From contig JBBSMX010000001.1 of assembly GCA_038232935.1 (NCBI GenBank), positions 9,585-73,584 of the forward strand: DNA of 64,000 nucleotides. Reading direction: 5' to 3'. Under the pieces are notes generated by a model. The model did no database searches and was not told the origin of the DNA. It was given only the letters and a program-made list of their open reading frames with translations. Positions within the stretch are counted from its first letter, which is position 1; every line of letters starts with the position of its first letter. The DNA is from Rhodothermales bacterium. Its GTDB lineage: Bacteria > Bacteroidota > Rhodothermia > Rhodothermales > JANQRZ01. Of this stretch, positions 28,130-64,000 are shown piece after piece. A program made the translations under genes and the position numbers.

Positions 28130-29251
28130 TTACGCAAGAGACATTCGGATCGACGGATTGCGGAGCTGCTCGACCATGTAGTCCGAGAGCAGGTCCCGCT
28201 TGAGCGCGTACACCGTCGTGCCCGCCTGCTCGGCCAGCGACTTCAGCCGCACCCACACCAGCATCGCGCACCCGACGTGGTTCCGCTGCGCCCGCTCCTT
28301 GCGGCACTGGCACTTCTCAATCCCCGTCGTCTGCTTCACCTCCCGATGCAACTGCTCGATCTTCCAGCGCACGGCGCACTCTTCTCGTGCGGCGTCCGAC
28401 GACGATTGAGTCACGTCGTTGGTCACGACGTATTCCGTGCGCTCGGTCGAGAGCGCGAGCCGGAACAGCTTCGCCTGATGCCCCTTCGGCATCCCCTTGA
28501 GGTGGACGAGTCGGCCCTCGTCGAGCGCGGCGAGCCCGTCGAGCGCGGCGAGCCCGTCGACGCGCTGGTAGTCTTGGCCCGGGCCGAGACTGACCTGGCG
28601 GTTGCCGCGCACAGGGCAGTAGTAGACCTTCCCCAGCCGCTCGATCTGCTTCCCCAGCCGCTCGATCTGCTTCCCCAGCCGCTCGATCTGCTTCCCCAGC
28701 GGCTCGATCTGCTTCCCCAGCGGCATCGTCGCGTACCAGGCGTCCATGAGCACGGTCGAAAACGGCAGCGGCACCTCCACACCGTCGGCACCCAAGACGC
28801 GCTTGTGACGAGCAGTGTGCTTGAGCATCTCCTCGACGTGGGTCAGCTTCGTCTTCCCATCGGTCTCGGGGGCGAAGACCCGGTAGTCGATGACCCCAAA
28901 GCGGCCGAGCGCTGGATTGACGTAGACGCACGTCACGACGCCGATCCCCTCGATGACGCCTTGGGCGTTGCCGCTCCACTGCCGCCGAGCGGGCTCGGTC
29001 TCGCGGCTGTGGCGCTTGTCGAGCACGGTGTCGTCGAAGAGGAGATAGCCGCGCGCGTTCGGCACGAGGTCCACCTTGACGTTGTCCCACACGAGCCGAG
29101 GCGTGACGCGGTCGCCGCGGAGGTAGCGGTTGATCGTGTCGTGGCTCCAGCGCGAGTGGTCGGCCAACGTCCGGGCGTGGTCGGCGAAGTAGGTGAGGGT
29201 GTAGTTGGTCTGGCTCGAGAGCAAGAACTGGCCGTAGTCGAGGCGGGTCAT
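28130..29251 (-). CDS. IS701-family DDE transposase containing in-frame tandem-repeat expansions
   Basis: MTRLDYGQFLLSSQTNYTLTYFADH.. ..LFDDTVLDKRHS.. ..VLMDAWYAT..LGKVYYCPVRGNR.. ..RWKIEQLHREVKQ.. is IS701/IS4-like from memory. Confidence 0.85.
   Translation of the reverse strand: MTRLDYGQFLLSSQTNYTLTYFADHARTLADHSRWSHDTINRYLRGDRVTPRLVWDNVKVDLVPNARGYLLFDDTVLDKRHSRETEPARRQWSGNAQGVIEGIGVVTCVYVNPALGRFGVIDYRVFAPETDGKTKLTHVEEMLKHTARHKRVLGADGVEVPLPFSTVLMDAWYATMPLGKQIEPLGKQIERLGKQIERLGKQIERLGKVYYCPVRGNRQVSLGPGQDYQRVDGLAALDGLAALDEGRLVHLKGMPKGHQAKLFRLALSTERTEYVVTNDVTQSSSDAAREECAVRWKIEQLHREVKQTTGIEKCQCRKERAQRNHVGCAMLVWVRLKSLAEQAGTTVYALKRDLLSDYMVEQLRNPSIRMSLA
28520..28558. repeat. 18-bp tandem repeat, about 2.2 copies, in frame (DGLAAL x2)
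   Basis: GTCGAGCGCGGCGAGCCC repeated within the transposase CDS. Confidence 0.85.
28628..28723. repeat. 21-bp tandem repeat, about 4.5 copies, in frame (LGKQIE[P/R] x4 + LGK)
   Basis: CCCCAGCCGCTCGATCTGCTT x3, then CCCCAGCGGCTCGATCTGCTT, then a partial unit. All within the transposase CDS. Confidence 0.9.
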
Positions 29252-29305
29252 GGCCGAAGGGGGCAGATTCAGGCGCTCAGTTTAGGCTGGGCTGCGTAAG
29301 ACGCC

Positions 29306-30145
29306 CTAACAAAACCTCTGGACAGCACCCCACGTGATGAGCGCGCACCCGAGCCGGACCAGCGCCTCGTGCAGGTCGAGCCGACGCTCGTAGCGCACCC
29401 GCAGGCGACGGAAGCCGCTCAGCCACGACAGCGTCCGCTCGACCACCCAGCGGTGCCGCCCCAGGCGCTCGCTCGACTCGACGCCCCGCCGTGCGATGCG
29501 CACCTTGATCCGGCGAAGGTGCAGGGCTCGGCGGCACTTCGGGAAGTCGTAGCCCTTGTCGGCGTGGAGCTTCGCCGGCCGCTTCCGAGGACGACCGCGC
29601 TGCTGGCGGATCGACGGCACGGCGTCGAGTAGGGCCTCGAAAACCATCGAGTCGTTCGTGTTGGCCCCGGTCAGGATCACGGCGAGGGGCGTGCCCCGTC
29701 GGTCGACCACAAGGTGGCGCTTCGTGCCCGGTTTCCCGCGATCCGTCGGATTCGGCCCGATGGCGCGGTCGGAGGCTCGCTCCCCCTTTTTGCGGTGCCC
29801 GGAGCCGGGACCGCTTGCGCGTCGAGCGACGCCCGCGACCAGTCGATCTCGCCGGCGACACCGAGCCGGTCGAGCAGCGCGTGGTGGAGCGCCGTCCAGA
29901 CGCCGGCCTCGTGCCAGTCGCGGAGGCGCCGCCAGCAGGTCATGCCGGAGCCGCAGCCCATCTCGGCAGCCCATCTCGGGTGGGAGCATCTCCCAAGGGA
30001 TGCCGGAGCGGAGGACGAAGAGGAGGCCGGTGAGGGCGGCGCGGTCGGGGACGCGGGGGCGTCCACCGCGCGGCTTGGGGGGCTCCGGTGGGAGGAGCGG
30101 CTCGACGACGGCCCAGAGGTCGTCGGAGAGAATCGGTTTGGTCAT
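29306..30145 (-). pseudogene. IS5-family transposase disrupted by a 13-bp tandem duplication
   Basis: MTKPILSDDLWAVVEPLLPPEPPKPRGGRPRVPDRAALTGLLFVLRSGIPWEMLPPEMGC, then out of frame. The correct continuation GSGMTCWRRLRDWHEAGVW.. lies in the +1 frame. The catalytic part GPNPTDRGKPGTKRHLVVDRRGTPLAV.. lies back in the first frame. Confidence 0.8.
29953..29978. repeat. 13-bp perfect tandem duplication GCAGCCCATCTCG x2
   Basis: Seen directly. Deleting one copy restores ..LPPEMGCGSGMTCWRRL.. Confidence 0.9.
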
Positions 30146-30228
30146 CCCGTTCAACCTCCCCAAGAGACGGGAGGTTTTGTTAGGGCGTCTTAGTCCTGAT
30201 CTTGTCCTCCCGTTCCTACTTTAACGCT

Positions 30229-30693
30229 ATGACGACCGCGACCCTCGATGCTCCCCGAACCCGCGTGCCTCGTTCCGTCGAGTTTGCCGCGTACGGACTC
30301 CCCGGCCTGTTCTTCGGCGTGACGCTGATGAAGGCGGAGGTGGTGTCGTGGTTCAGGATTCAGGAGATGTTCCGCTTCCAGAGCTTCCACCTGTACGGCA
30401 TCATCGGCTCGGCGATTGTTGTAGCGGCCGTGCCGATCCGGCTGATCGACCGTCTCGGACTGCGCTCGGCGACGGGTGCGCCGATCCTGCTCGTGCCGAA
30501 GACGATGGGGCAGGGTGTCCGCTACGCCGTTGGTGGCATCCTCTTCGGCTTCGGCTGGGCGCTGACGGGGACCTGTCCGGGGCCGATGTTCGCGCTCGTC
30601 GGCGGCGGTGTCGGCGTGATGGCCGTCGCGCTCCTCAGCGCCGTCGCCGGGACGTGGGTCTACGGCCACGTCCGCCCTCTGCTGCCGCACTAG
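30229..30693 (+). CDS. YeeE/YedE-family sulfur-transport membrane protein (second subunit)
   Basis: From ATG 30229: MTTATLDAPR.. ..FGVTLMKAEVVSWFRIQEMF.. ..GFGWALTGTCPGPMFALVG.. Confidence 0.8.
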   Translation: MTTATLDAPRTRVPRSVEFAAYGLPGLFFGVTLMKAEVVSWFRIQEMFRFQSFHLYGIIGSAIVVAAVPIRLIDRLGLRSATGAPILLVPKTMGQGVRYAVGGILFGFGWALTGTCPGPMFALVGGGVGVMAVALLSAVAGTWVYGHVRPLLPH

Positions 30694-30717
30694 CCGCTCG
30701 CACTAACCCCTACGACC

Positions 30718-32157
30718 ATGCTGTTCCGACAGATCTTCGACCCGCACCTCGCGCAGTACGCGTACCTCATCGGCTGCCAGAAGACGAAGGAAGCGCTCGT
30801 GATCGACCCCGAGCGCGACATCGACCGCTACGTCGAGGCGGCGGCTGCCGAAGGGCTCCGCATCACGGCCGTCGCCGAGACGCACATCCACGCCGACTTC
30901 CTCTCGGGCGCGCGCGAGTTCGCCGAGCAGCACGGCACGAAGGTCTATCTCTCGGACGAGGGCGACGCCGACTGGAAATATGGGTGGGGCGAGGGCTACG
31001 ACGTGCAGCTTCTCCACGACGGCGACACGTTTACCGTCGGCAACATCAAGGTCGAGGCGGTCCACACGCCAGGGCACACGCCCGAGCACCTCAGTTTCCT
31101 CATCACCGACGAGGGGGGCGGGGCGAGTGAGCCGCTCGGCCTCGCTTCGGGTGACTTCGTGTTTGTCGGCGACCTCGGGCGGCCGGACTTGCTGGAGACG
31201 GCGGCGGGGCAGACCGGCGCGCGGGAACCCGCCGCGCAGGCGCTCTACGACTCCGTGCAGCGGCTGACCGACCTGCCGGACTTCCTCCAGATCTGGCCGG
31301 GCCATGGCGCGGGGAGCGCGTGCGGCAAAGCCCTCGGCTCCGTTCCCCAGTCGACGCTCGGCTATGAAATGAGGCAAAACCGCTCGATTCAGGCGGCGAA
31401 AGAAGGAGAGGAGACGTTCGTTAAAGAGATACTCGAAGGCCAGCCCGAGCCGCCGCTCTACTTCGCGCGGATGAAGCGGCAGAACCGTGACGGCGTCCCC
31501 CTCCTCGGCGGTCTCCCGCAGCCGAAGACGCTCGGAGCCGACGACCTCGCCGAGCTCGCAGACAACGCAGAGGTGACGGTGATCGACACGCGGGCGCGTG
31601 ACGCGTACATGCGCGGCCACCTCGCAGGCTCGATCCTCGCGCCTTTCAACAAGTCCTTCACGACGGTCGCGGGCTCTTACGTCGAGCCCGACGCGCCGGT
31701 CTACCTCGTCATCGAACCGGCCGATGCGGAGGAAGCCGTGCGCGACCTCGTGCGCATCGGGCTCGACGACGTGCGCGGCATCATCCCGCCCGACCCGCTC
31801 CGCGAGTACGGGCGCGACGGTGACACGCTGCGGATGCTCAAGACCATCGACTTCGACGAGCTCGACGGGCGGCGGCACTACACGAACGTCGAAATCCTCG
31901 ACGTGCGGCGGCAGGACGAGTGGGACCGGCGGCACATCCCGGGTGCGCGGCACATCCCCCACGTCCGCCTCGCCGACCACCTCGACGAGCTCCCGCGCGA
32001 CAAGACGATCCTCGTCCACTGCCAGAGTGGCGTCCGCTCGGCCGTCGCCGCCGCGCTCCTCGACGCGCACGAGTTCTCGGTGGCGTACGTCGGCGACCAC
32101 TTCACGAACTGGAAGGAGCGCGAGAAGGAACAAGGCGTGACGATGGGGGCGCATTAG
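30718..32157 (+). CDS. MBL-fold persulfide-dioxygenase-like protein fused to rhodanese domains
   Basis: AETHIHADFLSG, HTPGHTPEH, and a C-terminal rhodanese active-site loop ILVHCQSGVRS. Confidence 0.85.
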   Translation: MLFRQIFDPHLAQYAYLIGCQKTKEALVIDPERDIDRYVEAAAAEGLRITAVAETHIHADFLSGAREFAEQHGTKVYLSDEGDADWKYGWGEGYDVQLLHDGDTFTVGNIKVEAVHTPGHTPEHLSFLITDEGGGASEPLGLASGDFVFVGDLGRPDLLETAAGQTGAREPAAQALYDSVQRLTDLPDFLQIWPGHGAGSACGKALGSVPQSTLGYEMRQNRSIQAAKEGEETFVKEILEGQPEPPLYFARMKRQNRDGVPLLGGLPQPKTLGADDLAELADNAEVTVIDTRARDAYMRGHLAGSILAPFNKSFTTVAGSYVEPDAPVYLVIEPADAEEAVRDLVRIGLDDVRGIIPPDPLREYGRDGDTLRMLKTIDFDELDGRRHYTNVEILDVRRQDEWDRRHIPGARHIPHVRLADHLDELPRDKTILVHCQSGVRSAVAAALLDAHEFSVAYVGDHFTNWKEREKEQGVTMGAH

Positions 32158-32922
32158 ATGCTGCTCGCACTCGTCGGGGCCTTATTCGTGGGGCTGAGCC
32201 TGGGCCTGCTCGGCTCGGGCGGCTCGATTCTCACCGTGCCCGTGCTCGTCTACCTCGTCGGGCAGCCGGAGAAGGAAGCCATTGCCGAATCGCTCGGGAT
32301 TGTCGGGCTGATTGCGCTTTCGGGCGCGGTGATGAACGCGGTGCAGCGGAAGGTGGACTGGCGGAGCGTCCTCCTCTTCGCGATTCCCGGCATGATCGGA
32401 ACCGCGTCGGGCGCGTCGCTCTCCGGGCTCGTCAGCGGGCTCGTGCAGCTCACGGTGTTCTCGGTCACGATGCTCGCCGCGGCCGTGCTGATGTTTCGCG
32501 GCAGGCCCTCGGAAGGAGCCGCCGCGCCGCGTCAGCCGTGGTGGCTGACGGCGGTCGAGGGATTCCTGATCGGCGTGCTGACGGGGTTCGTCGGCGTCGG
32601 CGGTGGGTTTGTGCTCGTGCCGGCGCTCGTGCTCCTCGTCGGCCTCCCGATCCACGTCGCGATTGGGACGAGCCTGACGATCATCGTGCTCAACAGCGCG
32701 AGCGGGTTCGTGCGCTACCTCGACGTGCTGGCCGAGGCGGGGTTGGGGATCGACTGGCAGCTCGTCGGGGTGTTCGGGGCGGTCGGGATCGTCGGCAGCA
32801 TCGTCGGCAACCGGATCGGGGCCTACGTCCCGCGCGCGCGTCTCCGGCAGGGGTTCGCCGTCTTCCTCGTCGTAATGGCGGTCTACATCCTGTGGCGCAG
32901 CCTGCCGGGGCTGATGGCGTAG
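32158..32922 (+). CDS. TauE/SafE-family sulfite/anion exporter
   Basis: Multi-TM protein with [16 protein letters not shown] and [13 protein letters not shown] motifs. The ATG follows the stop of the upstream gene directly. Confidence 0.8.
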
Positions 32923-33054
32923 GGGTGGACCTGCGTGTCCGCCCTCGTCGGCGATGACAGCACGGCCGGGCAGGGACGGAGGCCTGCCCCTACAGCACAG
33001 AGGGGCGCGTTCCGTAATTTCGGCTCCCGACTCCTCTGACCTATCGACTCCCCG

Positions 33055-34716
33055 ATGGAAACCGCCGTCACCGTCAAGGCCCCGACCGGCACCGCGCTCT
33101 CGTGCAAAGGCTGGCATCAGGAAGCCGCCCTCCGCATGCTGATGAACAACCTCGACCCGGCCGTCGCCGAGCGGCCGGAGGAACTGATCGTCTACGGCGG
33201 TGGGGGCAAGGCGGCGCGCGACTGGCCGAGCTATCACAAAATCGTCGAGACGCTGCGGCGGCTGGAGAACGACGAAACACTGCTCGTGCAGAGCGGCAAG
33301 CCCGTCGGCGTGTTCCGCACGCACGAGGAAGCGCCGCGCGTGCTGATCGCCAACGCGCACCTCGTCCCGAAGTGGGCCACCATCGACGAGTTCCGTCGCC
33401 TCGACGCGCTCGGCCTCACGATGTACGGGCAGATGACGGCGGGCTCGTGGATCTACATCGGCACGCAGGGGATTGTGCAGGGGACCTACGAGACCTTCGC
33501 CGAGTGCGCCCGCCAGCATTTCGGAGGCTCGCTCGAAGGGCGGCTCGTCGTGACGGCCGGGCTCGGGGGGATGGGCGGCGCGCAGCCGCTCGCGGCGACG
33601 ATGAACGGCGCGGCCTTCCTCGGCATCGACGTGGACCCCATCCGCATCCAGCGCCGCGTAGAAACGGGGTATTGCGACCGGATGGAGAGGGACTTAGACG
33701 CTGCACTTGAAGTGATACTCGGAGCTAAGGCCAACGGAGAGGCGCTCTCGGTCGGCCTCGTCGGCAACATCGCCGAGGTGCTGCCCGAGTTGGTGCGGCG
33801 TGGCATCGTCGCCGACATCGTCACCGATCAGACGAGCGCGCACGACCTCCGCGTCGGCTACATCCCGGCGGGCTATTCGCTGGCCGAAGCCGATGCCTTT
33901 CGAGAGCGCGACCCGGAGGGCTACGACGACGCTGTGCTCGATTCGATGCAGCGCCACGTCGAGGCGATGCTGGCACTGCAACGCGAGGGCGCGGTCGTGT
34001 TCGACTACGGCAACAACCTCCGCGGGCAGGTCGCCGACCGGCGCGGGATGGCCGAGGCGTTCGACATCCCTGGCTTCGTCCCCGAGTTCATCCGGCCGCT
34101 CTTCTGCAAAGGCTCCGGCCCGTTCCGCTGGGCGGCCCTCTCTGGTAATCCCGCCGACATCGCCGCGACCGACACCGCCGTGCTGGAGACGTTTCCCGAG
34201 AAGGAAGCACTCGCGCGGTGGATTCGGAAGGCGCAGGAGAAGGTCCACTTCCAGGGCCTCCCGGCGCGGATCTGCTGGCTCGAATACGGCGAGCGCGCCG
34301 AGATGGGTGAGCGCTTCAACTGGCTCGTGAAAAACGGCAAGGTCGATGCTCCGCTCGTGATCGGGCGCGACCACCTCGACACGGGGTCCGTCGCCAGCCC
34401 GAACCGTGAGACCGAAGCGATGAAAGACGGCTCCGACGCGATTGCCGACTGGCCCCTCCTCAACGCGCTGCTCAACACGGCGTGCGGCGCGTCGTGGGTC
34501 TCGCTCCACCACGGCGGCGGCGTCGGCATCGGTTACTCCATCCACAGCGGCATGGTCTGCGTCGCCGACGGCACCGAGATGGCCGACCGCCGTCTCGCCC
34601 GCGTCCTCACCGCCGACCCTGGCACTGGCGTCATGCGCCACGCCGACGCCGGCTACGACCTCGCTATCGACACTGCCAACGAGCGCGGCGTCGACCTCCC
34701 GATGATCAACGGCTGA
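33055..34716 (+). CDS. hutU: urocanate hydratase
   Basis: ..[27 protein letters not shown].. ..[14 protein letters not shown].. is the full-length urocanase pattern. Confidence 0.95.
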
Positions 34717-43261: not shown

Positions 43262-44197
43262 ATGAATGAATCGCTCGTTCCCACATCCATCCCCGTGCCC
43301 GACACGGCCGACGACGATCCCCGTCTCGGCCGGTGGCTCGCTGCGAATCGCTCCGCCGAGGGCGCACGCGTCGTGCTCGTCGGCTTCCCGTCGGACGAGG
43401 GCGTGCGGCGCAACGGTGGGCGGCCCGGAGCCGCCGACGGTCCCGATGCGATCCGCCGCGCGCTGTACAAACTCACCCCCGACGCGGAGCACCCCGACCT
43501 CTTCGCCGATCTGCTCGACCGCACCGCCGACCTCGGCGACGTGCCGGTTACGGGCGACGTGGAGGTCGATCAGCAGCGGCTCGGCGATGTGCTCGCGCCG
43601 CTGCTGGCGGACGGCGTCGTGCCGGTCGTGCTCGGCGGGGGACACGAGACGAGCTTCGGGCACTTCCTCGGCTACGTCGGCGCGGTGCAGGACGTGGAGA
43701 TGCTGAACTGGGACGCCCACGCCGACGTGCGACCGCTGAAGGACGGGCAGGCGCACTCCGGCTCGCCGTTCCGGCAGGCCCTCGAACACACCTCCGGCCG
43801 GTGCCTGCGCTACGTCGTCGCCGGGCTCCAGCCGCACAGCGTCGCCCGCGCCCACCTCGACCTCATTGACGACCACGGCGGCGAAGTGATCTGGCGGCGG
43901 AATCTGAGCGAGGTCCGCATCCGCTCCATCGCCATCGGCCTCGCCGAACCCACCCTCGCCACGTTCGATCTCGACGCCGTGAACGCGGCCGAGGCACCCG
44001 GCGTCAGCGCTCCGAATGTCGGTGGGCTTCCGGCGGACCTCTGGCTCTACGCGGCCTACGAAATGGGCCGCTCGCCGCTCGTGTCTTCGATGGACGTGGT
44101 GGAACTGAACCCGGCGTTCGACCTCGACGGGCGGACGGCGCGGCTGGCGGCGCTCACCGTCTGGCATTTCCTCAAAGGAATGGCGGAACGGGTGTGA
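43262..44197 (+). CDS. hutG: formimidoylglutamase (arginase family)
   Basis: VVLGGGHETSFG, NWDAHADVRP and FDLDAV metal-site motifs, in the hut context. Confidence 0.85.
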   Translation: MNESLVPTSIPVPDTADDDPRLGRWLAANRSAEGARVVLVGFPSDEGVRRNGGRPGAADGPDAIRRALYKLTPDAEHPDLFADLLDRTADLGDVPVTGDVEVDQQRLGDVLAPLLADGVVPVVLGGGHETSFGHFLGYVGAVQDVEMLNWDAHADVRPLKDGQAHSGSPFRQALEHTSGRCLRYVVAGLQPHSVARAHLDLIDDHGGEVIWRRNLSEVRIRSIAIGLAEPTLATFDLDAVNAAEAPGVSAPNVGGLPADLWLYAAYEMGRSPLVSSMDVVELNPAFDLDGRTARLAALTVWHFLKGMAERV

Positions 44198-44263
44198 TCT
44201 CGACCCCCGAACTGTTCGGCTCCGGCGGGGTACGAGGGGAGCCCCCCTTACCTATGCGCTCCG

Positions 44264-44470
44264 ATGAAATACCGTGTACTGATCGAACCCGACGAGGACG
44301 GCGTGTTCGTCGCCACCGTCCCCTCCCTGCCTGGCTGCGTCGCCGACGGCTCGACGCGCGACGAGGCCTTGCGTAACGTGAAAGATGCGATTGCGCTCTA
44401 TATCGAGAGTTTGGAGGAGCATGGCGATCCGATCCCGCCTCCGATCACCGAGGAAATGGTCGAGGTGTAG
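44264..44470 (+). CDS. hicB: HicB-family antitoxin
   Basis: MKYRVLIEPDEDGVFVATVPSLPGCVADGSTRDEALRNVKDAI.. is the classic HicB N-domain. Confidence 0.85.
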   Translation: MKYRVLIEPDEDGVFVATVPSLPGCVADGSTRDEALRNVKDAIALYIESLEEHGDPIPPPITEEMVEV

Positions 44471-44472
44471 GC

Positions 44473-44691
44473 GTGGGTGACCTCCCCGTCGTATCCGGTC
44501 GCAGCGTGGTGAAAGCGCTCAGGAAGCTCGGGTACGCGTTCGACCGCCAGCGCGGGAGTCACATGATCCTGCGCCAGAAGGACCCGCCGCATCGCCGCGC
44601 CGTGGTCCCGGATCACAAGGAGGTAGCGAAGGGGACGCTCCGCTCAATTTCTGGGATTAGATTGGGCGAGTGTATCTTTGGCACTAATTAG
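44473..44691 (+). CDS. hicA: HicA-family mRNA interferase toxin; last ~13 codons encoded by the adjoining AT-rich DNA
   Basis: ..VKALRKLGYAFDRQRGSHMILRQ.. ..HKEVAKGTLRSI is canonical HicA. The tail SGIRLGECIFGTN comes from sequence whose composition switches at ~44647. Confidence 0.8.
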   Translation: MGDLPVVSGRSVVKALRKLGYAFDRQRGSHMILRQKDPPHRRAVVPDHKEVAKGTLRSISGIRLGECIFGTN

Positions 44692-44705
44692 ATTTTAGAT
44701 TCTAC

Positions 44706-45326
44706 ATGAGTACAGATATATTTCTTAGTGAATATCAGAGTGGATTATCTTGGTTCATCGCTAGCAAGAAAATGTATTTGAGTGCCAAAACACTCAGCGA
44801 TACCGCATCTGCTCAACCTTATAGCAGAAGTGATGAACGTACAAAGTATATCGTATTAGGTCACTACGATTCGTCAATGATGTGCTACGGATTCGCAGTG
44901 GAACTAGCTTTGAAAGGTTGTATTATCGAATATCACCCCGAAAGGGTAAGAATCAAGGTTGTTTCGGATGGGAAGGGTAAGGTTTGTGATGCGCGAGTGG
45001 AGCAGCTTGGCGTTGATGTAGGTAAGAAAGGCCATAGTCTCGTAGATCTAGCGAATGCGGTAAAGCTTTTCAGACAAGGTGATAACTCCTTTTTTCCTCA
45101 TAAGAATGTCCATGAAGAAGTGAAAGCAATTCTTGAAGTACTTACAGAATACTCAGTTTGGGCGGGACGGTATCCAATCCCTAAATCGTTAGAAGAAATG
45201 AATCTCGATAGCGCAGGGCATAAACTTCCACTACGTGAGATGGAGAGTTGGATTCATTTTATAATCGAAAGCCTTTTGTCTGATTACGGGCTGAGCCTTC
45301 ATCATGGCTCGGTCATTAGGAGCTAG
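44706..45326 (+). CDS. hypothetical protein in an AT-rich island; weak HEPN-like helices (speculative)
   Basis: 206 codons with strikingly AT-rich codon usage compared with the neighbours. ..YGFAVELALKGCII.. and ..KKGHSLVDLANAV.. resemble HEPN helix motifs, but no Rx4-6H motif is evident. Confidence 0.6.
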   Translation: MSTDIFLSEYQSGLSWFIASKKMYLSAKTLSDTASAQPYSRSDERTKYIVLGHYDSSMMCYGFAVELALKGCIIEYHPERVRIKVVSDGKGKVCDARVEQLGVDVGKKGHSLVDLANAVKLFRQGDNSFFPHKNVHEEVKAILEVLTEYSVWAGRYPIPKSLEEMNLDSAGHKLPLREMESWIHFIIESLLSDYGLSLHHGSVIRS

Positions 45327-45330
45327 CAGG

Positions 45331-45423
45331 TTTAAGCAATCCATCCCTTGAAGGCGCTATGCTTGTGCCGCTTGCCGTTCGATGAGGCGATGGGTTCGGC
45401 GGCGAGCTAGAGGAGACAGGCGG
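45331..45423. repeat. diverged copy (A) of the fabH 3' end plus downstream sequence
   Basis: Aligns by eye with 45966-46058 (both start TTTAAGC.. and share ..CGATGGG[T/C]TCGGCGGCGAGCT..CAGGCGG). Roughly three-quarters identical, with small indels. Confidence 0.6.
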
Positions 45424-45478
45424 AGCGGGAGCTTTGAGGATGGAGACGCAGGGGGATTGGAGGCGTATACCCTCGTTC

Positions 45479-45940
45479 TCAAGGGGCTAACGTCTTGCTG
45501 AAACGTCGGCCGGTTGCTTCCAGCCCCATCCGGGGATAAAACGCGCGCGCGTCGGCCCGATCCTCATGGGTCGTCACAGAGAGCCTTTCACAGCCGGACT
45601 CCTTCGCGAAATCTTCTGCCGCCTCGATGAGGGTGCGCCCCACGCCCGTTCCCCTCACGGCTTCATCGACGACCAAAGCCGTCAACCAAGCGACATCGCT
45701 GCGCCGGTTCAGCACGCTGAGGAGGTGGACGGTCGCGAGGCCGACCACCTCGTTGCCTTGTTGCGCCAGCAGCACCGCTGCCCGGTCATTGCCGGTCAAA
45801 CGGTCGAGTCGCACCGGTACATCCGCGCTGTCGGTCGGGTAGCCAAGCTGAGAGAGCAGGCGGGCGATCACATCGGCATCGGCAGCGGTGGCCCGCCGAA
45901 CCCGGAGCGCGGTCGGCATTTCTATTCGAGATTGAGACAT
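45479..45940 (-). CDS. GNAT-family N-acetyltransferase
   Basis: ..LVVDEAVRGTGVGRTLIEAAEDFAKESGC.. is the acetyl-CoA-binding motif A (R/Q-x-x-G-x-G/A). Confidence 0.85.
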   Translation of the reverse strand: MSQSRIEMPTALRVRRATAADADVIARLLSQLGYPTDSADVPVRLDRLTGNDRAAVLLAQQGNEVVGLATVHLLSVLNRRSDVAWLTALVVDEAVRGTGVGRTLIEAAEDFAKESGCERLSVTTHEDRADARAFYPRMGLEATGRRFSKTLAP

Positions 45941-45965
45941 CTTGAAGTACGGCCTACCCTTAGCA

Positions 45966-46058
45966 TTTAAGCGATGAATCCTTCAACGGCCGGATGTTGG
46001 TGCTTCCTCCGCCTCGACGGCGCGATGGGCTCGGCGGCGAGCTGGAAGAGGCAGGCGG
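45966..46058. repeat. copy (B) of the repeat, forming the actual 3' end of fabH
   Basis: See 45331-45423. In copy B the position equivalent to the TAG of copy A is CAG, so fabH reads on for 23 extra codons. Confidence 0.6.
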
Positions 46059-58737: not shown

Positions 58738-59229
58738 ATGAAAACCATCCTCCTCCTCCGTCACGGCAAATCCGACTGGGACGCCGATTTCGGCCACGAC
58801 CACGACCGGCCCCTCGCCAAGCGCGGCCGGAAGGCGGCCAAGACGATGGGGAAATTCCTCGTCGCGAGTGGCACCCTCCCGGACCGCATCGTGACCTCGA
58901 CGGCCAAACGGGCGCGGACGACGCTGGAGCTCGCGTGCAAGGCCGGCGGGCTGACGGCACCGGTGCGCGAAGCACGCGAACTTTACGGGGCCGGCCCTAC
59001 CGATCTTCTCCGCGAAATCCACGCGGCGGACGACGCGGCAGACGTGCTGCTCCTCGTCGGCCACCAGCCGGGGTGGGGCGAGACGGTCAGCCGGCTCATC
59101 GGGGGCGGGGCCGTTCAGTTCCCGACGGCCGCGCTCGCGCGCGTGGATGTGGACGTGCAGCAATGGCGGGACGTGGCGTTCGGGCGGGGCGAGCTGGTCT
59201 GGCTCGTCCCGCCGAAAGCGCTGGGCTGA
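58738..59229 (+). CDS. sixA: SixA-type phosphohistidine phosphatase (histidine phosphatase superfamily)
   Basis: MKTILLLRHGKSDW (RHG motif), ..LVGHQPGWGE.. Confidence 0.8.
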   Translation: MKTILLLRHGKSDWDADFGHDHDRPLAKRGRKAAKTMGKFLVASGTLPDRIVTSTAKRARTTLELACKAGGLTAPVREARELYGAGPTDLLREIHAADDAADVLLLVGHQPGWGETVSRLIGGGAVQFPTAALARVDVDVQQWRDVAFGRGELVWLVPPKALG

Positions 59230-59259
59230 GCCACCGACCACTCAGCCGGGAGTCGATGG

Positions 59260-59292
59260 GGGGGTCGAGCGGAAACGCCCCGCTCGACCCCC
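59260..59292. terminator. 13-bp GC-rich hairpin between convergent sixA and the protease gene
   Basis: GGGGGTCGAGCGG-AAACGCC-CCGCTCGACCCCC. No clear T-tract. Confidence 0.45.
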
Positions 59293-59326
59293 ACATGCTA
59301 ACTCAGGCATGCGCAGGACGTTCGGC

Positions 59327-61486
59327 TCACCGGAGCAGCGTTACACGCTGCGTCTGTGTGAAGGCCCGCTTGTTGCCCGCAGCTTCTACACGCACGACGT
59401 ACACCCCGCTCGGCAACCGCGCGCCGTCAAACGCTACCTCGTGCTCACCCGCTGCATAGGCTCCTTCAGCTAGGCGGACGACCTCACGCCCGAGTACGTC
59501 GTAGACGCCTATACGCACGTCAGCGGTCTCGGGCAGCAACAGCGTCAGCGTCGTCGCGGCGTGGAACGGGTTCGGGCGGGCCGCCTGCAACGCGTAGGCA
59601 GCCGGTACCCCCGGCGTCTCTTCACCCGCTACCGGCTCGCTCGGCCGCCCGTTGCAACTGGCCCCGCACGGCTTCGCCAGGATCGTGTAAGCGAAAGCTG
59701 CATTGGCGGCGGTAGTCGGGTAGTAGCCGTAGTACGTCTGCCCATCGCTGCTCCAGACCTCGTAGACGTAGGTCCTCAGCGTCACGTTCGGAGAGGAGTT
59801 CGAGACCACGTCCGTGAAAGAGAGGCCGTAGGTGTACGGCACGGATTGGTTGGGCGGGTCGTCCTGACCCCAGCCCTGGTTAGCCGGGATGCCGGAGCCA
59901 CCGCCCCGCCCCCAGATGTAGGGCGTCCCGTCGAAGAAACCGACGTTGACCGTCCGCCGGACCTCGCGGCGCTTGACGCGGTAGAGCCCATCGACGAGGT
60001 TGTCGTTGGGGTTGTAGATGTAGAGGTCGTACTGGCCGGAGGTGCTGTAGACGCTCCCGCCGCCAGTGACGGAGGCGCGCGTGAGCTGCCACGGGCTCTC
60101 GAGGAAGGCCAGCGCCTTGTCCGCGTTGATGCGGCCCGTGCCGTACAGGTTGTCAAAGCCGGGATCGCCTTTGTCATCTGCTGAGAGGCGGATGATCTGC
60201 TCTACGTCGTCGGGGTAGTTCTGGAGGCTACCGCCGTAGGACATAAGCAGGGCCGCCAGGCCACTCGTCGCGGGCGTAGAGAACGAGGTGCCGTAGTTAT
60301 AGTCGTAGGTGTTGGTCGGGAACGTCGTGTAGATCCGGCCGTTGCCGCTGGTGGCACCGCCGGGCGCGGCCACGTCGATCCACGAGCCCGTACTCGAATA
60401 GCTCGCCCTCACGTCGAACTGGGTCGTGGCACCGACGGTGATGAACCCCTGGCCGTAGGCCGCCGGGTACTGGACGACGTTGCCTGACTGATTCCCCATC
60501 GAGACGGCGATGGAGCGGCCCAGGCGGTAGGCATCGGCGAACGCCTGACGGAGATCCACGGAATAGGTGCCCACCGGGACCAGCTTCCAGCTATTGTTGA
60601 GGACGTTCGCGCCCCGGTTGTAGGCGCTCTGAACGGCCGCGACGAAATCGGCAGCCGAGCCGTTGCCGTAGTCTTCGTTGATGATGCCCACACCCCAGGC
60701 GACGCCCGCGATGCCAGTGCCGTTGTTGCCTTTCGCCGCAGCGACACCGGCCACCGCCGTCCCGTGTGAGCAGTTGTTGGCGGCGTCCCCGCTCGCGCGC
60801 CCGGTAAAGTCGGTGTGGCTCGTCTGCATGCCGCAATCTATCACCCCGACCTTCACCCAGCTATCCCCGGTCTCGCGGTTCCAGGCCAGGTAGGTCTTCA
60901 TGTCGGCACCGGGCGTACCGCTTCCTTGCAGCACCGTGCCGTCGTTCTTGTGCATCCACTGGCGGCCGAACTCCGTGTCGTTCGGGGTGAGGAGCACCTC
61001 GATCAGCGCCTGTTCCTCTCGGACGGGGGCGTAGCTCACGATGTCGTCGGGCTCGCCGCGCACGTTGGGATGGGCGTAGACGACGTCCGGCCGCGCCCGT
61101 AGCAGGGCAAGGAACGCCGCGCGCGACGTGGTGCTCCCGCTGCGCTGGGTGAGGACGTAGACGTCGGTCCAGTCGGTGAGCCCCACCGTTTCGCCGGTGC
61201 CGAGTGTAGCGAAGCGGTCTTCGGGATCGAAGCCCGGAATGATCTGCCGCATCGTCTCGACCTGCGCGTCGAGGAGTAATTGGAGGAGTGCGGGTGTGCT
61301 GAAGACGTAGGTTTCCGGCGAGGCCGGTGCCCCGTCTGTGGCGCTGCCCAGGACGGTGCCCGGCGTGAAGCGGACGATGACCTCGCGGTCGATGACAGAG
61401 GACTGTGCCTGAGCAGGCAGGGCGGAGGCCAAGCCGAGGAGCGCGCAGAGCAGCAATCTCCGGCGCGGGAGCTGTAGCGAGTTCAT
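59327..61486 (-). CDS. S8 (subtilisin-family) serine peptidase with T9SS-type C-terminal sorting domain
   Basis: Signal peptide MNSLQLPRRRLLLCALLGLASALPAQA. Triad contexts VGVIDCGM, HGTAVAGV and GTSFSTPATSG. C-terminus ..VRIGVYDVLGREVVRLAEG..LPSGVYVVRVEAAG.. Confidence 0.9.
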   Translation of the reverse strand: MNSLQLPRRRLLLCALLGLASALPAQAQSSVIDREVIVRFTPGTVLGSATDGAPASPETYVFSTPALLQLLLDAQVETMRQIIPGFDPEDRFATLGTGETVGLTDWTDVYVLTQRSGSTTSRAAFLALLRARPDVVYAHPNVRGEPDDIVSYAPVREEQALIEVLLTPNDTEFGRQWMHKNDGTVLQGSGTPGADMKTYLAWNRETGDSWVKVGVIDCGMQTSHTDFTGRASGDAANNCSHGTAVAGVAAAKGNNGTGIAGVAWGVGIINEDYGNGSAADFVAAVQSAYNRGANVLNNSWKLVPVGTYSVDLRQAFADAYRLGRSIAVSMGNQSGNVVQYPAAYGQGFITVGATTQFDVRASYSSTGSWIDVAAPGGATSGNGRIYTTFPTNTYDYNYGTSFSTPATSGLAALLMSYGGSLQNYPDDVEQIIRLSADDKGDPGFDNLYGTGRINADKALAFLESPWQLTRASVTGGGSVYSTSGQYDLYIYNPNDNLVDGLYRVKRREVRRTVNVGFFDGTPYIWGRGGGSGIPANQGWGQDDPPNQSVPYTYGLSFTDVVSNSSPNVTLRTYVYEVWSSDGQTYYGYYPTTAANAAFAYTILAKPCGASCNGRPSEPVAGEETPGVPAAYALQAARPNPFHAATTLTLLLPETADVRIGVYDVLGREVVRLAEGAYAAGEHEVAFDGARLPSGVYVVRVEAAGNKRAFTQTQRVTLLR

Positions 61487-61697
61487 GGCGGTCGGGTGGG
61501 TTCGGTTTGCACCGAGGTGAGCGTATCTTGCGCCGAACACACGAGCGCCCGAAACGGGAGCGACTGTGCGGCGCGTGGCTTCGCGATCTGTGGAGGATCG
61601 AGCGGGGTATGGGGTCGGCAGCGCCCGAGCCGGGCGCTCGTCTTTTCAGGGGGCAGGCATAGTAGGATGGGGGGTTAGGTGGAGGAAGCCGCCGGGG

Positions 61698-62810
61698 TCA
61701 GCAGCCGCCGGGGCAACGGCCCCAGGCGGGGAAGTAGTCGCTGAGCTGCGTGAGGTCGGAGCCGTCGCGCGCCATCGTGTAGAGCTGGCCGCTCCACCGC
61801 TCCGGCACGTTCTGCGAGCGCACAAAAGCAATCGTATTGCTATTCGGGTTCCAAGTGAAGTATTCGAGTGCGTCATTGGGTTCAAGACGCTCCACATGGG
61901 ACCCTTCAAGCACATAGATAAAGCGGCCTTCTCCGGTATCTGGCAGTCCCCAGAACACAATGCGTTGGTCGTCCGAACTCAACTGGGGGCTGCGCAAGAA
62001 GGTGTCCCTGACCTGAGGTTCATTCAAGCAAGTGAGCCGGGTGTAGCTACTGGGATCGCTGACGGAGATCCGAGCCAAGTCTCCATAGAGGTTTAGATAG
62101 TCGATGTAGATGAGTGAATCGCCCGTAGCATTCCACTCAGGTTCAAATCCGGGTGCTACATACGCTTCCCCGCTCCCATCCGCCCCTATGACCCATAGAT
62201 CTCCGCTCGTGTTGATACGGTAGGAGGTGAACGCAATGCGCTGCCCGTCGGGGCTCCAGGCGGGAGCGAAGTTGGTATTCTCCGTCGTCAACTGCCGCAG
62301 CGTCGAGAGGTCTACGCGCGCCGAGTCGAGGTCGGCCACCTCCACCGTGTAGATCTGCGGCACGGCCAGGTCGCTCAGGGCCAGGTGCCGTCCGTCCGGG
62401 CTCCAGTCCGGCTCGGCGAAGTCCCCCTCCAGGAGCGGCCTCTTCCCTCCCGTCTCCGTGTCGAGCAGCCAGATTCCGTTGACGTAGCCGTCGTAGCGGC
62501 AGTCGGCGTCGGTATCTATGCTATCGGCGTGGACGGCGGCGAGGTAGCGGCCGTCGGGGTGCCAGGCCGGGTCGGTGAAGAACGGAGCCCAGATCGGGTC
62601 GTTGCAGCCCTCGGCTTCCTCACAGAGCCGGAACTCGACGGGGGGGAACTCGCACGCGGCGGGGGGCGGGTCCGGATCGGGCGGGTCCGGGGGATCGGGC
62701 GGGAAGGCATCGCAGCCGCCGAGCCAGAGGAGCGCCGCCGCGAGGACGGCGAGGGCGAGTGTGCCAAGCCAGAGGGTCGGGCTCGAGGCCCGTAGCGTCC
62801 GAGCAGTCAT
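61698..62810 (-). CDS. TolB-like PD40 beta-propeller lipoprotein (start uncertain)
   Basis: Lipobox LWLGGC, a Pro/Asp-rich linker, and repeats WHPDGRYLA, WSPDGRHLA and WSPDGQRIAF. Confidence 0.75.
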   Translation of the reverse strand: MTARTLRASSPTLWLGTLALAVLAAALLWLGGCDAFPPDPPDPPDPDPPPAACEFPPVEFRLCEEAEGCNDPIWAPFFTDPAWHPDGRYLAAVHADSIDTDADCRYDGYVNGIWLLDTETGGKRPLLEGDFAEPDWSPDGRHLALSDLAVPQIYTVEVADLDSARVDLSTLRQLTTENTNFAPAWSPDGQRIAFTSYRINTSGDLWVIGADGSGEAYVAPGFEPEWNATGDSLIYIDYLNLYGDLARISVSDPSSYTRLTCLNEPQVRDTFLRSPQLSSDDQRIVFWGLPDTGEGRFIYVLEGSHVERLEPNDALEYFTWNPNSNTIAFVRSQNVPERWSGQLYTMARDGSDLTQLSDYFPAWGRCPGGC

Positions 62811-63004
62811 GGTCAGAGCGGTTGAGTTCAAAACCGGCCTGACCACTCCTCACCTTACTGGACAGCCAACGTGTCGTGCCTACGCATGAATCCGTCAGGT
62901 CACCGCCTAGTTTAAAAAAAACATCACCGGAATGCAAGAGAGTGACTGAATCTCTTGGCTAAGAAACTGGCTCCGAAAGCTGACTTTCCAATTTAATAAC
63001 GTGG

Positions 63005-63217
63005 ATGAACGCCGAGGGCGATGCGGCGGAGGTGCTGCTCCTCGTCGGTCACCAGCCGGGGTGGGGCGAGACGGTCAGCCGGCTCATCGGGGGCGGGGCC
63101 GTTCAGTTCCCGACGGCCGCGCTCGCGCGCGTGGATGTGGACGTGCAGCAATGGCGGGACGTGGCGTTCGGGCGGGGCGAGCTGATCTGGCTCGTTTCAC
63201 CGAAGGCGCTGGGGTGA
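63005..63217 (+). pseudogene. duplicated 3' fragment of sixA
   Basis: Encodes ..DAAEVLLLVGHQPGWGETVSRLIGGGAVQFPTAALARVDVDVQQWRDVAFGRGELIWLVSPKALG, colinear with the last 70 codons of sixA (59017-59229). A 135-bp stretch (63050-63184) is identical. Confidence 0.85.
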
Positions 63218-63436
63218 CGGTCGGTTGCCCTAGGCTCCCTTCACCCTGTTCCTCTCCCCGCCGGGGCGAGGGGACGTTCTCTGAACCGTTGGCGGTATTC
63301 GATGGGAGAGAACGTCGAAAGGGCAGAGAGGGGCGGTAGACAACTCGGGAATGAGGGTGCCTTCGGCCCCGGCAGAACGGCTCAGCGCATTCGTCGGATT
63401 CAGTAGAATCACGCCCACACGCCCACACGCCCAGCC

Positions 63437-64000
63437 TCATCCCACCTCTAACGCCGCCTCGCGCGCGCGCTCCGGCGTCACGTCCAGCTCCATCCCCGGT
63501 GGGCACGGCGCGATGGGAATGCGGAGCGCGTGGAGGCCCTGGACCCCCGGCATCGGCTCGACGTCCATGGCCTCGATGCGCCCGTCGACGTAGCCGGCCG
63601 CACGCAGGTAATCGAGGTAGGTGCGGTACTCCTCCACGTCGCGGGTGTGGGAGAGCACGAGGGCGAGCGTGCCCGGCTGCGTGAGCCGCTCCTCCGTCCC
63701 GGCAATCGTCGCCTTGTCGATCCGCTTCTTGACGATCTCGTAGCGCGTGTTGTACGCCCCGTCCACGTCGAACTGCTTCTCGTCGTAGCGGAAGCGGATG
63801 GCGATCGGGCTGCTCTGGATGAGGATGAGGTGGGCTGTCTCCAGCGGCATCGGTAGGTCCGGTGCGATCCGGTCGAGCGCCCACGCGGTGCTGCACGTCG
63901 TCATGAGCTGCCAGAGGCGGAGGTTGCGGAGCGCGAGGGGGTCCACCTCCCCCTCTTCGAGAAGCGCGGCACCGGCGTATATGGTGTACTCGACGCCGTC
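63437..64000 (-). CDS. hypothetical protein, 3' part only (gene continues beyond the window end)
   Basis: The frame is open from 64000 down to the stop at 63437. ..FRYDEKQFDVDGAYNTRYEIVKKRIDKA.. I associate this with C-termini of some GAF-domain proteins, but am not sure. Confidence 0.5.
   Translation of the reverse strand, partial: DGVEYTIYAGAALLEEGEVDPLALRNLRLWQLMTTCSTAWALDRIAPDLPMPLETAHLILIQSSPIAIRFRYDEKQFDVDGAYNTRYEIVKKRIDKATIAGTEERLTQPGTLALVLSHTRDVEEYRTYLDYLRAAGYVDGRIEAMDVEPMPGVQGLHALRIPIAPCPPGMELDVTPERAREAALEVG

What the first reader, a model, noticed from the sequence alone, without database searches (positions are those of the whole stretch)
59017..63217. 3.8-kb two-gene insert bracketed by a duplicated sixA 3' end
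The last ~70 codons of sixA (59017-59229) recur at 63005-63217 in the same orientation. The copy has a 135-bp perfectly identical core (63050-63184), diverged edges, and no similarity beyond the stop codons. Between the copies lie a strong hairpin, a T9SS-targeted S8 protease gene and a TolB-like beta-propeller lipoprotein gene, both antisense and partly lower in GC. An AT-rich junction (about 62920-63000) follows. This is the footprint expected when a segment integrates into the 3' end of a gene while supplying a replacement end, as genomic islands do at tRNA or protein-gene att sites. However, no integrase is present. The identical core with diverged flanks hints at recombination or gene conversion between the copies.
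Basis: seen in the sequence. Interest (0 to 1): 0.6.

Follow-up and report, generated by a model that had tools for sequence, protein, structure and literature searches.

The report
Small gene islet flanked by duplicated sixA end
A roughly 4-kb, two-gene segment (a lipoprotein and a secreted protease) has been inserted between two normally overlapping genes of a Rhodothermales-like bacterium, and a duplicated tail of the sixA gene marks it as a single-crossover insertion without its own integrase – a clear but fairly ordinary example of how small genomic islets arise.

Summary
Positions 59017-59229 (the last 70 codons of a SixA-like histidine phosphatase gene) recur at 63005-63217. The 135-bp core is identical, the edges are 80-82% identical, and similarity drops sharply to background outside.

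Relatives show the empty site. In L168, L169 and L088, sixA and a convergent GAF-domain gene overlap or abut at their stop codons. About 4.2 kb in the window is therefore an insertion.

The insert is not a recognisable mobile element. It has no integrase or transposase. None of 162 related sixA loci has an orphan or second sixA 3' end. There are no plasmid or phage matches.

One relative (L085) carries sixA 3' end, hairpin and PD40 gene as one contiguous stretch. Its PD40 is about 90% nt identical, and it lacks the protease. The window's insert therefore looks like a circular permutation of such a chromosomal segment.

The A/B edges differ as functional orthologs do (pS 0.39, pN/pS 0.33).

Best reading: a Campbell-type single crossover of a roughly 4-kb circle at the sixA 3' homology, probably RecA-mediated, with a 135-bp conversion tract. 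A decayed site-specific element is the main rival.

This is a new member of a known kind, of modest interest.

The parts
58738..59229 (+). Intact SixA-like histidine phosphatase gene (163 aa)
   Evidence: Pfam His_Phos_1 E=1.7e-12. The best NCBIfam hit is TIGR00249 sixA, but at 59.7 bits it is below the 74.5 cutoff. There are 1501 homologs, up to 84% identical.
59017..59229 (+). Repeat copy A (codons 94-163 plus stop of sixA)
   Evidence: Both edges are consensus-like. The left edge is closest to the syntenic relative L083 (39/45).
59062..59196 (+). 135-bp core identical to 63050-63184; inferred crossover/conversion tract
   Evidence: 135/135 identical, against 107-116/135 to relatives. P<5e-6 by permutation.
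59256..59296 (.). Strong hairpin between convergent sixA and the protease gene (probable bidirectional terminator, no U-tract)
   Evidence: 17-nt arms at 94%. The fold has z -5.1. A hairpin with a different stem sits at the homologous place in L085.
59279..59314 (+). Spacer homologous to the sixA-downstream spacer of relative L085 (contains CATGCTAACTCAGG)
   Evidence: 86% identity to L085 4185-4220. In L085 it is followed directly by the PD40 stop codon.
59327..61486 (-). S8 subtilase with T9SS C-terminal sorting domain (719 aa as called; ORF extends to 61540)
   Evidence: Peptidase_S8 1.8e-38 and Por_Secre_tail/TIGR04183 above cutoff. The best non-self homolog is only 50% identical. The gene is absent from L085 at junction 59314|61697.
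61698..62810 (-). PD40/TolB-like beta-propeller lipoprotein (370 aa as called; lipobox LWLGGC)
   Evidence: PD40 4.1e-19. Called as P0213. The L085 homolog is 64% aa identical overall, and 90-91% nt identical at both ends.
61823..62219 (-). Low-GC, highly diverged middle segment of the PD40 gene (mosaic)
   Evidence: GC is 0.55-0.60. There is no blastn match to L085 here, while the flanks are 90-91% identical and aa identity is 30-57%.
62811..63004 (.). AT-rich upstream region of the PD40 gene; its right end (63004|63005) is the novel joint to the sixA fragment
   Evidence: GC 0.57. No homolog in the window or in 169 loci. Similarity to sixA starts abruptly at 63005.
63005..63217 (+). Repeat copy B: orphan sixA 3' fragment (70-codon ORF with ATG created by I94M; called as a gene, P0212)
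   Evidence: It has unique changes at otherwise invariant I94 and D98. It shares codons 96, 97, 101, S158 and K160(AAG) with L085.
63218..63436 (.). 219-bp spacer of unknown origin between copy B and the GAF gene stop
   Evidence: Absent in the empty sites of L168, L169 and L088, where the stops overlap or abut. No homolog found.
63437..64000 (-). 3' end of a conserved GAF-domain gene, the ancestral convergent neighbour of sixA (runs off the window)
   Evidence: 88% aa / 87% nt identical to the L083 GAF gene. The C-terminus is full length compared with L083 and L168.

Best explanation
The ancestral locus was AI-2E transporter, then sixA, convergent with and tightly abutting a GAF-domain gene.

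A DNA circle of about 4 kb recombined once (Campbell-type single reciprocal crossover) with the 3' part of the resident sixA. The circle carried, in order:
- a 3' fragment of a sixA allele from a related lineage (codons 94-163);
- a terminator hairpin;
- an S8/T9SS protease gene;
- a PD40 lipoprotein gene with its AT-rich upstream region.

This added the two cargo genes and left sixA intact. It also left a second, orphan sixA 3' fragment (copy B) on the far side next to the GAF gene.

The circle was a circular permutation of ordinary chromosomal DNA from a relative in which sixA is directly followed by the hairpin and the PD40 gene (as in L085). It was not a self-mobile element.

The crossover was most likely made by the host's homologous recombination. 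A 32-nt perfectly conserved block encoding LLVGHQPGWGET provides a plausible initiation site. Heteroduplex repair, or a later gene conversion between the repeats, produced the 135-bp identical core bounded by allele-level divergence.

What is shown and what is inferred:
- Shown: insertion relative to empty sites; repeat structure; allele-like divergence of the edges; linkage of sixA 3' end, hairpin and PD40 in another genome; absence of a recombinase.
- Inferred: the circular intermediate, RecA dependence, the position of the crossover, and the timing of the conversion.

The cargo probably acts as one accessory cell-surface or extracellular proteolysis module, because PD40 gene(s) followed by an S8/T9SS protease recur as a unit elsewhere.
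For: Repeat structure.
- Repeat geometry and sharp boundaries.
- The run of identity is non-random.
- The core is not unusually conserved among relatives.

Empty sites and flanks.
- Empty sites with conserved synteny on both sides: L168 and L169 (4-nt overlap of stops), L088, L104, L139.
- The right flank of the window is the same GAF gene.

Donor-like context.
- L085 has sixA, hairpin, spacer and PD40 contiguous.
- Identity to the window is 83% for sixA, 86% for the spacer and 90-91% for PD40.

Allele-like edges.
- A/B edges have pS 0.39 and pN/pS 0.33 with no indels, the same as ortholog comparisons.
- B's edges share states with L085, and A's left edge with L083.
- The longest exact block between A and L085 is 32 nt, at 59053-59084.

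No mobility machinery or recurrence.
- No integrase in any scanned gene of the window.
- No tRNA or Rfam feature.
- No recurrent use of sixA as a target in 162 loci.
- No viral, plasmid or phage hits.

Cargo.
- Both cargo genes are rare. The best homologs are 50% and 45% identical, against 84% for SixA.
- The PD40(s)-then-protease order recurs at unrelated loci in L086 and L087.

Assembly.
- An independent assembly supports the A-side junction.
Against: - Recombination between about 80-85% identical 213-bp segments is inefficient. A perfectly identical 135-bp tract needs an extra conversion step.
- Marker polarity does not cleanly fit a crossover inside the core. Both edges of B look L085-like and both edges of A look native-like. 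This would place the crossover at the extreme 3' end, or require conversion. The numbers are small.
- The 219-bp spacer between copy B and the GAF gene is absent from the empty sites of L168, L169 and L088 and is unexplained.
- L085's contig ends inside PD40. It is therefore unknown whether L085 is a donor-like native context or carries the same kind of insertion. L085's upstream context differs: ECF sigma and Ser/Thr kinase instead of AI-2E.
- Only 64 kb of the genome could be searched for recombinases.
- No circular form or empty-site allele was seen, although the test was weak.
Confidence: 0.5

Rival explanations
1. The segment is the decayed remnant of a site-specific integrative element (CIME-like). 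An integrase-bearing island or prophage used the sixA 3' end as attB and carried a replacement 3' end, as e14 and phage 21 do with icd. It later lost its integrase and most genes, leaving attL, attR and two cargo genes. The 135-bp core is the att identity block.
For: - The layout is the same as icd/icdC around e14 (PMC13626634) and fits the CIME definition (PMC5704250).
- The direct repeats end exactly at the stop codon and the intact gene is preserved.
- Relatives show empty sites.
- The allele-like edges fit an element-borne replacement end.
Against: - No recombinase is present in the insert or the window.
- 0 of 162 other sixA loci show an orphan or second 3' end within +/-10 kb.
- No sixA 3' fragments occur on viral contigs, and there are no plasmid or phage matches.
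- The A-side junction is ordinary contiguous chromosome in L085.
- No phage, conjugation or mobilisation remnants are present.
Confidence: 0.2
2. This is an old in-place duplication. The cargo was inserted with a long (213-bp) target duplication, or by unequal sister-chromatid or one-sided illegitimate recombination (HFIR-like). Both copies were initially identical. Copy B has since decayed at its edges, while recurrent gene conversion from A keeps the centre identical.
For: - B carries unique changes at invariant residues (I94M, D98G) and A does not.
- Conversion between short repeats is expected to be confined to the interior.
- L085 shares the sixA-hairpin-PD40 arrangement, so the insertion could predate the split of the two lineages.
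Against: - Edge differences are 8 synonymous to 7 non-synonymous (pN/pS 0.33). This matches functional orthologs rather than neutral decay. There are no indels.
- The boundaries are abrupt rather than graded: 80% drops to background within a few bases.
- Several B states match other lineages' functional alleles.
- The closest syntenic relatives lack any trace of the duplication.
Confidence: 0.15
3. This is an assembly artefact, or a mis-resolved repeat path. The true molecules would be an empty site (sixA next to GAF) plus a separate 3,988-bp circle or another strain's contig, joined wrongly through the 135-bp shared core.
For: - The source appears to be a short-read metagenome-type assembly. 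A 135-bp exact repeat is close to read and k-mer length.
- The Logan contig breaks inside the core.
- Integrated and excised configurations have identical k-mer content for k<=135.
Against: - The B-left junction (AT-rich DNA joined to a diverged sixA fragment) is unique sequence that no mis-join can create.
- The alternative path would be a 4-kb circle with no replication gene.
- Both integrated-state ORFs, but neither predicted excised-state ORF, are in the 15-billion-protein collection.
- The deposited 93.5-kb contig carries the integrated form.
Confidence: 0.07

Closest known systems
e14 / phage 21 integration into icd of E. coli (icd plus icdC pseudogene)
   Same: The insert sits in the 3' part of a protein-coding gene. 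The gene stays intact. A C-terminal fragment lies at the far end of the insert. The two copies differ by mostly conservative or synonymous changes (PMC13626634, citing Hill et al. 1989).
   Different: e14 encodes its own integrase and excisionase and excises on SOS induction. Here there is no recombinase and there are no phage genes. The insert is only 4 kb with two cargo genes. There is no recurrence of the site in relatives.
CIME (cis-mobilizable element: decayed ICE/IME retaining attL and attR)
   Same: [quoted passage not shown]
   Different: No cognate ICE or IME with the same target was found anywhere. The repeat is 213 bp with a 135-bp identical core rather than a defined att core. The left junction matches plain chromosomal context in L085.
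Campbell-type (single-crossover) homologous integration of non-replicating circular DNA, and additive 'flexible genomic islets' between conserved core genes
   Same: The homologous segment is duplicated on both sides of the inserted DNA. The cargo is added without loss of host genes. The same inter-gene slot holds different cargo in a relative: a 165-aa lipoprotein in L083.
   Different: This is best known from laboratory suicide plasmids (my own knowledge). Natural examples with diverged (about 80%) homology and a clean conversion tract are rarely documented. The circular intermediate here is inferred.
Homology-facilitated illegitimate recombination (HFIR) during natural transformation
   Same: Foreign DNA is anchored by a single homologous segment next to non-homologous cargo, with a novel illegitimate joint (63004|63005).
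   Different: HFIR with linear DNA normally deletes or replaces recipient DNA rather than duplicating the anchor (my own knowledge). The diverged-identical-diverged pattern does not fit one homologous plus one illegitimate crossover on a linear fragment.

Membership tests
Integrase-borne island/prophage inserted in the 3' end of a protein gene (e14-icd type) | Direct repeat of the target gene's 3' end flanking the insert, with the gene kept intact | tested here: met
   59017-59229 vs 63005-63217. sixA is a full-length 163 aa.
Integrase-borne island/prophage inserted in the 3' end of a protein gene (e14-icd type) | Tyrosine or serine recombinase gene within the element | tested here: not met
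   The insert holds only an S8 protease and a PD40 protein. No recombinase domain was found in about 40 further genes of the window.
Integrase-borne island/prophage inserted in the 3' end of a protein gene (e14-icd type) | Unoccupied attB in relatives | tested here: met
   In L168, L169 and L088 sixA and GAF overlap or abut. In L104 and L139 they are 80-120 bp apart.
Integrase-borne island/prophage inserted in the 3' end of a protein gene (e14-icd type) | Same target used repeatedly by related elements in other genomes | tested here: not met
   0 orphan or duplicate sixA 3' ends in 162 loci (+/-10 kb). None on viral contigs.
Integrase-borne island/prophage inserted in the 3' end of a protein gene (e14-icd type) | Excision to a circle and restoration of the empty site | not testable with these tools
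   There is only a weak negative: the predicted excised-state ORFs are absent from the protein collection. Reads are needed.
CIME (decayed ICE/IME) | attL and attR retained, integration and transfer genes lost | tested here: met
   Direct repeats are present and no mobility genes are found.
CIME (decayed ICE/IME) | Descent from, or shared att specificity with, an ICE/IME | tested here: not met
   No relative carries an element at sixA. There are no remnants of conjugation or mobilisation genes. The insert has no plasmid or phage similarity.
Campbell-type homologous integration of a circular DNA | Duplicated segment equals the region of homology, bordering the insert in direct orientation | tested here: met
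   213-bp repeat with sharp ends.
Campbell-type homologous integration of a circular DNA | One junction is colinear with a donor-like context elsewhere, and the other with the native context | tested here: met
   The A side (sixA 3' end, hairpin, PD40) matches L085. On the B side, the GAF gene is the native neighbour in L083, L168 and L088, although a 219-bp spacer is unexplained.
Campbell-type homologous integration of a circular DNA | RecA dependence and a circular intermediate | not testable with these tools
   This is inferred only. A 32-nt exact block shared with L085 could serve as an initiation segment.
Transposon / IS-mediated insertion | Transposase, terminal inverted repeats, short target-site duplication | tested here: not met
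   There is no transposase in the insert and no terminal inverted repeats. The repeat is 213 bp. The only IS genes lie 29 kb away, at 28130-30220.
SixA phosphohistidine phosphatase (TIGR00249) | Score above the curated equivalog cutoff | tested here: not met
   59.7 bits against a cutoff of 74.5. sixA is the best hit, and His_Phos_1 is above its Pfam cutoff. Hence 'SixA-like'.
T9SS cargo protein | C-terminal type A sorting domain | tested here: met
   TIGR04183 scores 33.4 bits (cutoff 23) and PF18962 scores 27.3 (cutoff 27), at residues 656-724.

The most novel reading that the evidence does not exclude
The sixA 3' end could be the attachment site of an integrase-less cargo cassette that is moved in trans. 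The mover would be a recombinase encoded elsewhere in the genome, or a satellite-like relationship with an undiscovered Rhodothermales element. More generally, about 4-kb circularised chromosomal fragments (the size delivered by gene-transfer-agent-like particles or vesicles) may routinely seed additive islets between tightly packed core genes by single-crossover recombination. That would be a recombinase-free route to islet formation, leaving 'duplicated gene end' scars.
Probability: 0.12. Interest if true: 0.55.

Novelty: new member of a known kind. Interest (0 to 1): 0.3.

Why it matters
The locus is a clean, well-bounded natural example of how two accessory genes can be added between core genes whose ends overlap without damaging either gene. 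The duplicated gene end acts as the scar.

It shows that such a scar need not imply an integrase-bearing island. Island-finding pipelines that equate flanking direct repeats with site-specific integration should take note.

It also documents mosaic exchange of a PD40/S8-T9SS surface-protease module among uncultured Rhodothermales-like bacteria.

It does not reveal a new mechanism or system.

Tried and rejected
Look-ups and scans that gave little.
- Exact look-ups of the window's SixA and PD40 proteins, and of P0001, found no indexed contig. Sequence beyond position 64000 could therefore not be fetched. Only a 3.2-kb Logan contig was found, via the protease.
Close relatives had to come from protein look-ups.
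- A codon-degenerate pattern for the core peptide (FPTAALARVDVDVQQWRDVAFG) found nothing in JGI metagenomes.
- sixA C-terminal patterns on viral contigs gave no relatives. The same was true for PD40 on viral contigs.
- blastn of the insert against plasmids and phages gave no match.

Ideas rejected.
- tRNA, tmRNA or ncRNA as the true att site: none found.
- The hairpin as a dispersed REP-like element: only the two arms match exactly.
- Gradual erosion of a longer duplication: there is no in-register similarity outside the 213 bp.
- The spacer or the AT-rich junction as repeats or as homologs in relatives: none found.
- The literature holds no report of sixA as an attB.
- The excised-state ORFs are not in the protein collection.
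Full report
1. OBSERVATION

- The repeat finder reports 59021-59229 vs 63009-63217 at 94% identity, spaced 3988 bp.
- Alignment and in-register counting set the homology at 59017-59229 / 63005-63217.
- The left edge is 36/45 identical, the core (59062-59196 = 63050-63184) is 135/135, and the right edge ending at the TGA is 27/33.
- Identity drops abruptly to background on both sides.
- With 15 differences in 213 sites, a 135-nt clean run never occurred in 200,000 permutations.
- The same 135 nt are only 79-86% identical between this genome and four relatives. The identity therefore reflects recent common origin or conversion, not constraint.
- No third copy exists in the window.

- a SixA-like His_Phos_1 gene (best NCBIfam hit sixA, but below cutoff);
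- an S8 subtilase with a T9SS sorting domain;
- a PD40/TolB-like lipoprotein.

The hairpin at 59256-59296 is strong. GC dips to 0.55-0.60 inside the PD40 gene and to 0.57 at the AT-rich junction.

An independent Logan assembly of run SRR24807093 reproduces 59167-62394 with one mismatch. It terminates 30 nt inside the core, as expected at a genuine repeat branch in a k=31 graph.

2. THE LOCUS IN RELATIVES

SixA homologs up to 84% identical exist. The upstream synteny is Omp85, PycTM, lactamase_B, response-regulator cyclase, histidine kinase, cNMP-binding protein, AI-2E transporter, then sixA. It is shared by L001, L082, L083, L168 and L169.

The window's right flank (63437-64000) is the 3' end of a GAF-domain gene. 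It is 87% nt / 88% aa identical to the GAF gene of L083.

The slot between sixA and the GAF gene varies among relatives:
- In L168 and L169 the stops of sixA and the convergent GAF gene overlap by 4 nt (CTAG).
- In L088 the two genes also overlap or abut.
- In L104 and L139 they are 80-120 bp apart.
- L083 has a different small cargo, a 165-aa lipoprotein gene, in the same slot.
- L001 and L082 have unrelated genes after sixA.
- The block that follows sixA in L001 (CNNM, SSB, MazG, lactamase-rhodanese, TauE, urocanase) lies at 23976-34716 in the window.

The sixA 3' end is therefore both an empty site in several relatives and a synteny breakpoint. About 4.2 kb of the window (59230-63436) is derived. 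The GAF gene itself is full length.

3. NATURE OF THE INSERT

- No integrase, transposase or other mobility gene is in the insert. None is in about 40 other genes of the window, apart from two IS transposases 29 kb away.
- There are no tRNA or Rfam features.
- Both cargo genes are rare. The best non-self homologs are 50% (protease) and 45% (PD40) identical among 5.8 billion proteins, against 84% for SixA.
- The order 'PD40 gene(s) then S8/T9SS protease' recurs at unrelated loci in L086 and L087. The pair is therefore probably one functional module.
- Nothing similar is found in plasmid, phage or viral collections.
- Among 162 loci carrying a sixA 3' end, none has an orphan or second copy within +/-10 kb other than contig-edge truncations. 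No viral contig carries such a fragment.

4. THE KEY COMPARISON: L085

L085 is a 5.2-kb contig of GCA_038232975.1 whose SixA is the closest (84% aa). It reads ECF sigma, Ser/Thr kinase, sixA, a hairpin, a spacer containing CATGCTAACTCAGG, and then directly the stop codon of a PD40 gene.

| Region | L085 | Window | nt identity |
|---|---|---|---|
| sixA | 3640-4127 | 58738-59225 | 83% |
| spacer | 4185-4220 | 59279-59314 | 86% |
| PD40 3' end | 4221-4346 | 61697-61822 | 89.7% |
| PD40 5' half | 4744-5158 | 62220-62634 | 91.4% |

- The about 400-bp middle of PD40, which is the window's low-GC stretch, is strongly diverged.
- The protease gene (window 59315-61696) is absent from L085.

The A-side junction of the window's insert is therefore ordinary contiguous chromosome in another lineage. 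The insert is itself mosaic.

5. THE TWO COPIES

- The edge codons differ by 8 synonymous and 7 non-synonymous changes with no indels. This gives pS 0.39 and pN/pS 0.33, the same as A versus orthologs in seven relatives. B's edges therefore derive from a different functional sixA allele rather than from in-place decay.
- B also carries unique changes at invariant residues (I94M, which creates its ATG, and D98G), as expected for a non-functional fragment.
- B shares several states with L085 (codons 96, 97, 101, S158, K160).
- A's left edge is most like the syntenic relative L083.
- The core peptide ALARVDVDV resembles L085 rather than L083, L168 and L169.
- The longest exact block between A and L085 is 32 nt, in the LLVGHQPGWGET-coding region.

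6. MECHANISM

The simplest model that fits the topology is a Campbell-type single crossover. One partner is the resident sixA. The other is a circle of about 4 kb: sixA' codons 94-163, hairpin, protease, PD40 and the AT-rich upstream region, closed by the novel joint 63004|63005. That circle is a circular permutation of an L085-like chromosomal segment.

Homologous recombination with a conversion tract explains the diverged-identical-diverged pattern. The exact crossover point is uncertain. Marker polarity slightly favours 'A all native, B all foreign', which would mean a crossover near the stop codon plus a later conversion of the core.

I give this model 0.5. The rivals are:
- a decayed site-specific element, CIME- or e14-like (PMC5704250, PMC13626634): 0.2;
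- an old in-place duplication maintained by conversion: 0.15;
- assembly mis-resolution: about 0.07.

The mis-assembly reading is unlikely because the B-left junction is unique sequence. The alternative path would also be a replicon-less 4-kb circle, and only integrated-state ORFs are on record.

Unexplained items:
- the 219-bp spacer between B and the GAF gene;
- whether the protease was gained here or lost in L085;
- what lies upstream of L085's PD40.

7. VERDICT

There is an insertion with a duplicated gene end and empty sites in relatives. There is no evidence for an att/integrase system, and there is positive evidence that the incoming DNA was plain chromosomal DNA of a relative.

This is a new member of a known kind: a small additive genomic islet formed by single-crossover insertion. 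Interest is 0.3.

Noticed in passing
window 61823-62219 (inside the PD40 gene): The middle ~400 bp of the PD40 gene is low-GC (0.55-0.60) and strongly diverged from the L085 homolog, whereas both flanking parts of the gene are 90-91% nt identical. This looks like an internally replaced or hypervariable segment of a surface lipoprotein.
   Followed up: partly
L083 10496-11256: The closest syntenic relative carries a different small cargo in the same sixA/GAF slot: a 165-aa cysteine-rich lipoprotein gene with an AT-rich upstream region. It has no sixA duplication. The slot is therefore a recurrent site of small insertions.
   Followed up: partly
L168 8492-8495, L169 5071-5074, L088 ~1943-1946: In the empty sites, the stop codons of convergent sixA and the GAF gene overlap on a CTAG/TTAG palindrome. 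Any insertion there must duplicate or replace a gene end to keep both genes intact.
   Followed up: yes
window 23976-34716 and 28130-30220: The block CNNM, SSB, MazG, lactamase-rhodanese, TauE, urocanase directly follows sixA in relative L001 but lies 24-35 kb upstream of sixA here. It is interrupted between MazG and the lactamase-rhodanese gene by two adjacent DDE (IS4/IS5-type) transposase genes.
   Followed up: partly
window 11400-18000: A lower-GC patch (~0.61 vs 0.68) holds accessory genes: a rifampin ADP-ribosyltransferase (Arr-ms, 12066-12866, E=1e-64), a methyltransferase, a caspase-domain/Sel1 protein (13626-15560) and a DUF5343 protein. This is possibly another acquired region. No integrase was seen among the ORFs scanned.
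   Followed up: partly
window 44000-46000: The lowest-GC stretch of the window (0.56) holds ORFs (44706-45326, 45566-45970) without Pfam matches. It lies between an arginase-family gene and a KAS III gene.
   Followed up: no
window 59259: The single mismatch between the deposited contig (G) and the independent Logan assembly (T) lies in the left arm of the hairpin. With T the 17-nt inverted repeat is perfect. This is either a strain variant or a consensus error.
   Followed up: partly
window 63408-63431; L083 10496-10535; L085 4135-4165: G/T-rich (or C/A-rich) short tandem motifs occur immediately after stop codons of sixA or the GAF gene in three genomes, for example CACGCCCA x3 next to the GAF stop. 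This is possibly a lineage-specific 3' UTR or terminator-associated motif.
   Followed up: no
window 63005-63217: The orphan sixA fragment is an intact 70-codon ORF whose ATG was created by the I94M change. It sits just downstream of the AT-rich region and was called as a gene (P0212) in the deposited annotation. Whether it is expressed is unknown.
   Followed up: partly
window 3340-6420 and 1008-2765: A cyanophycin synthetase gene and an adjacent Mur-ligase-type paralog lie at the left end of the window. They are unrelated to the finding.
   Followed up: no
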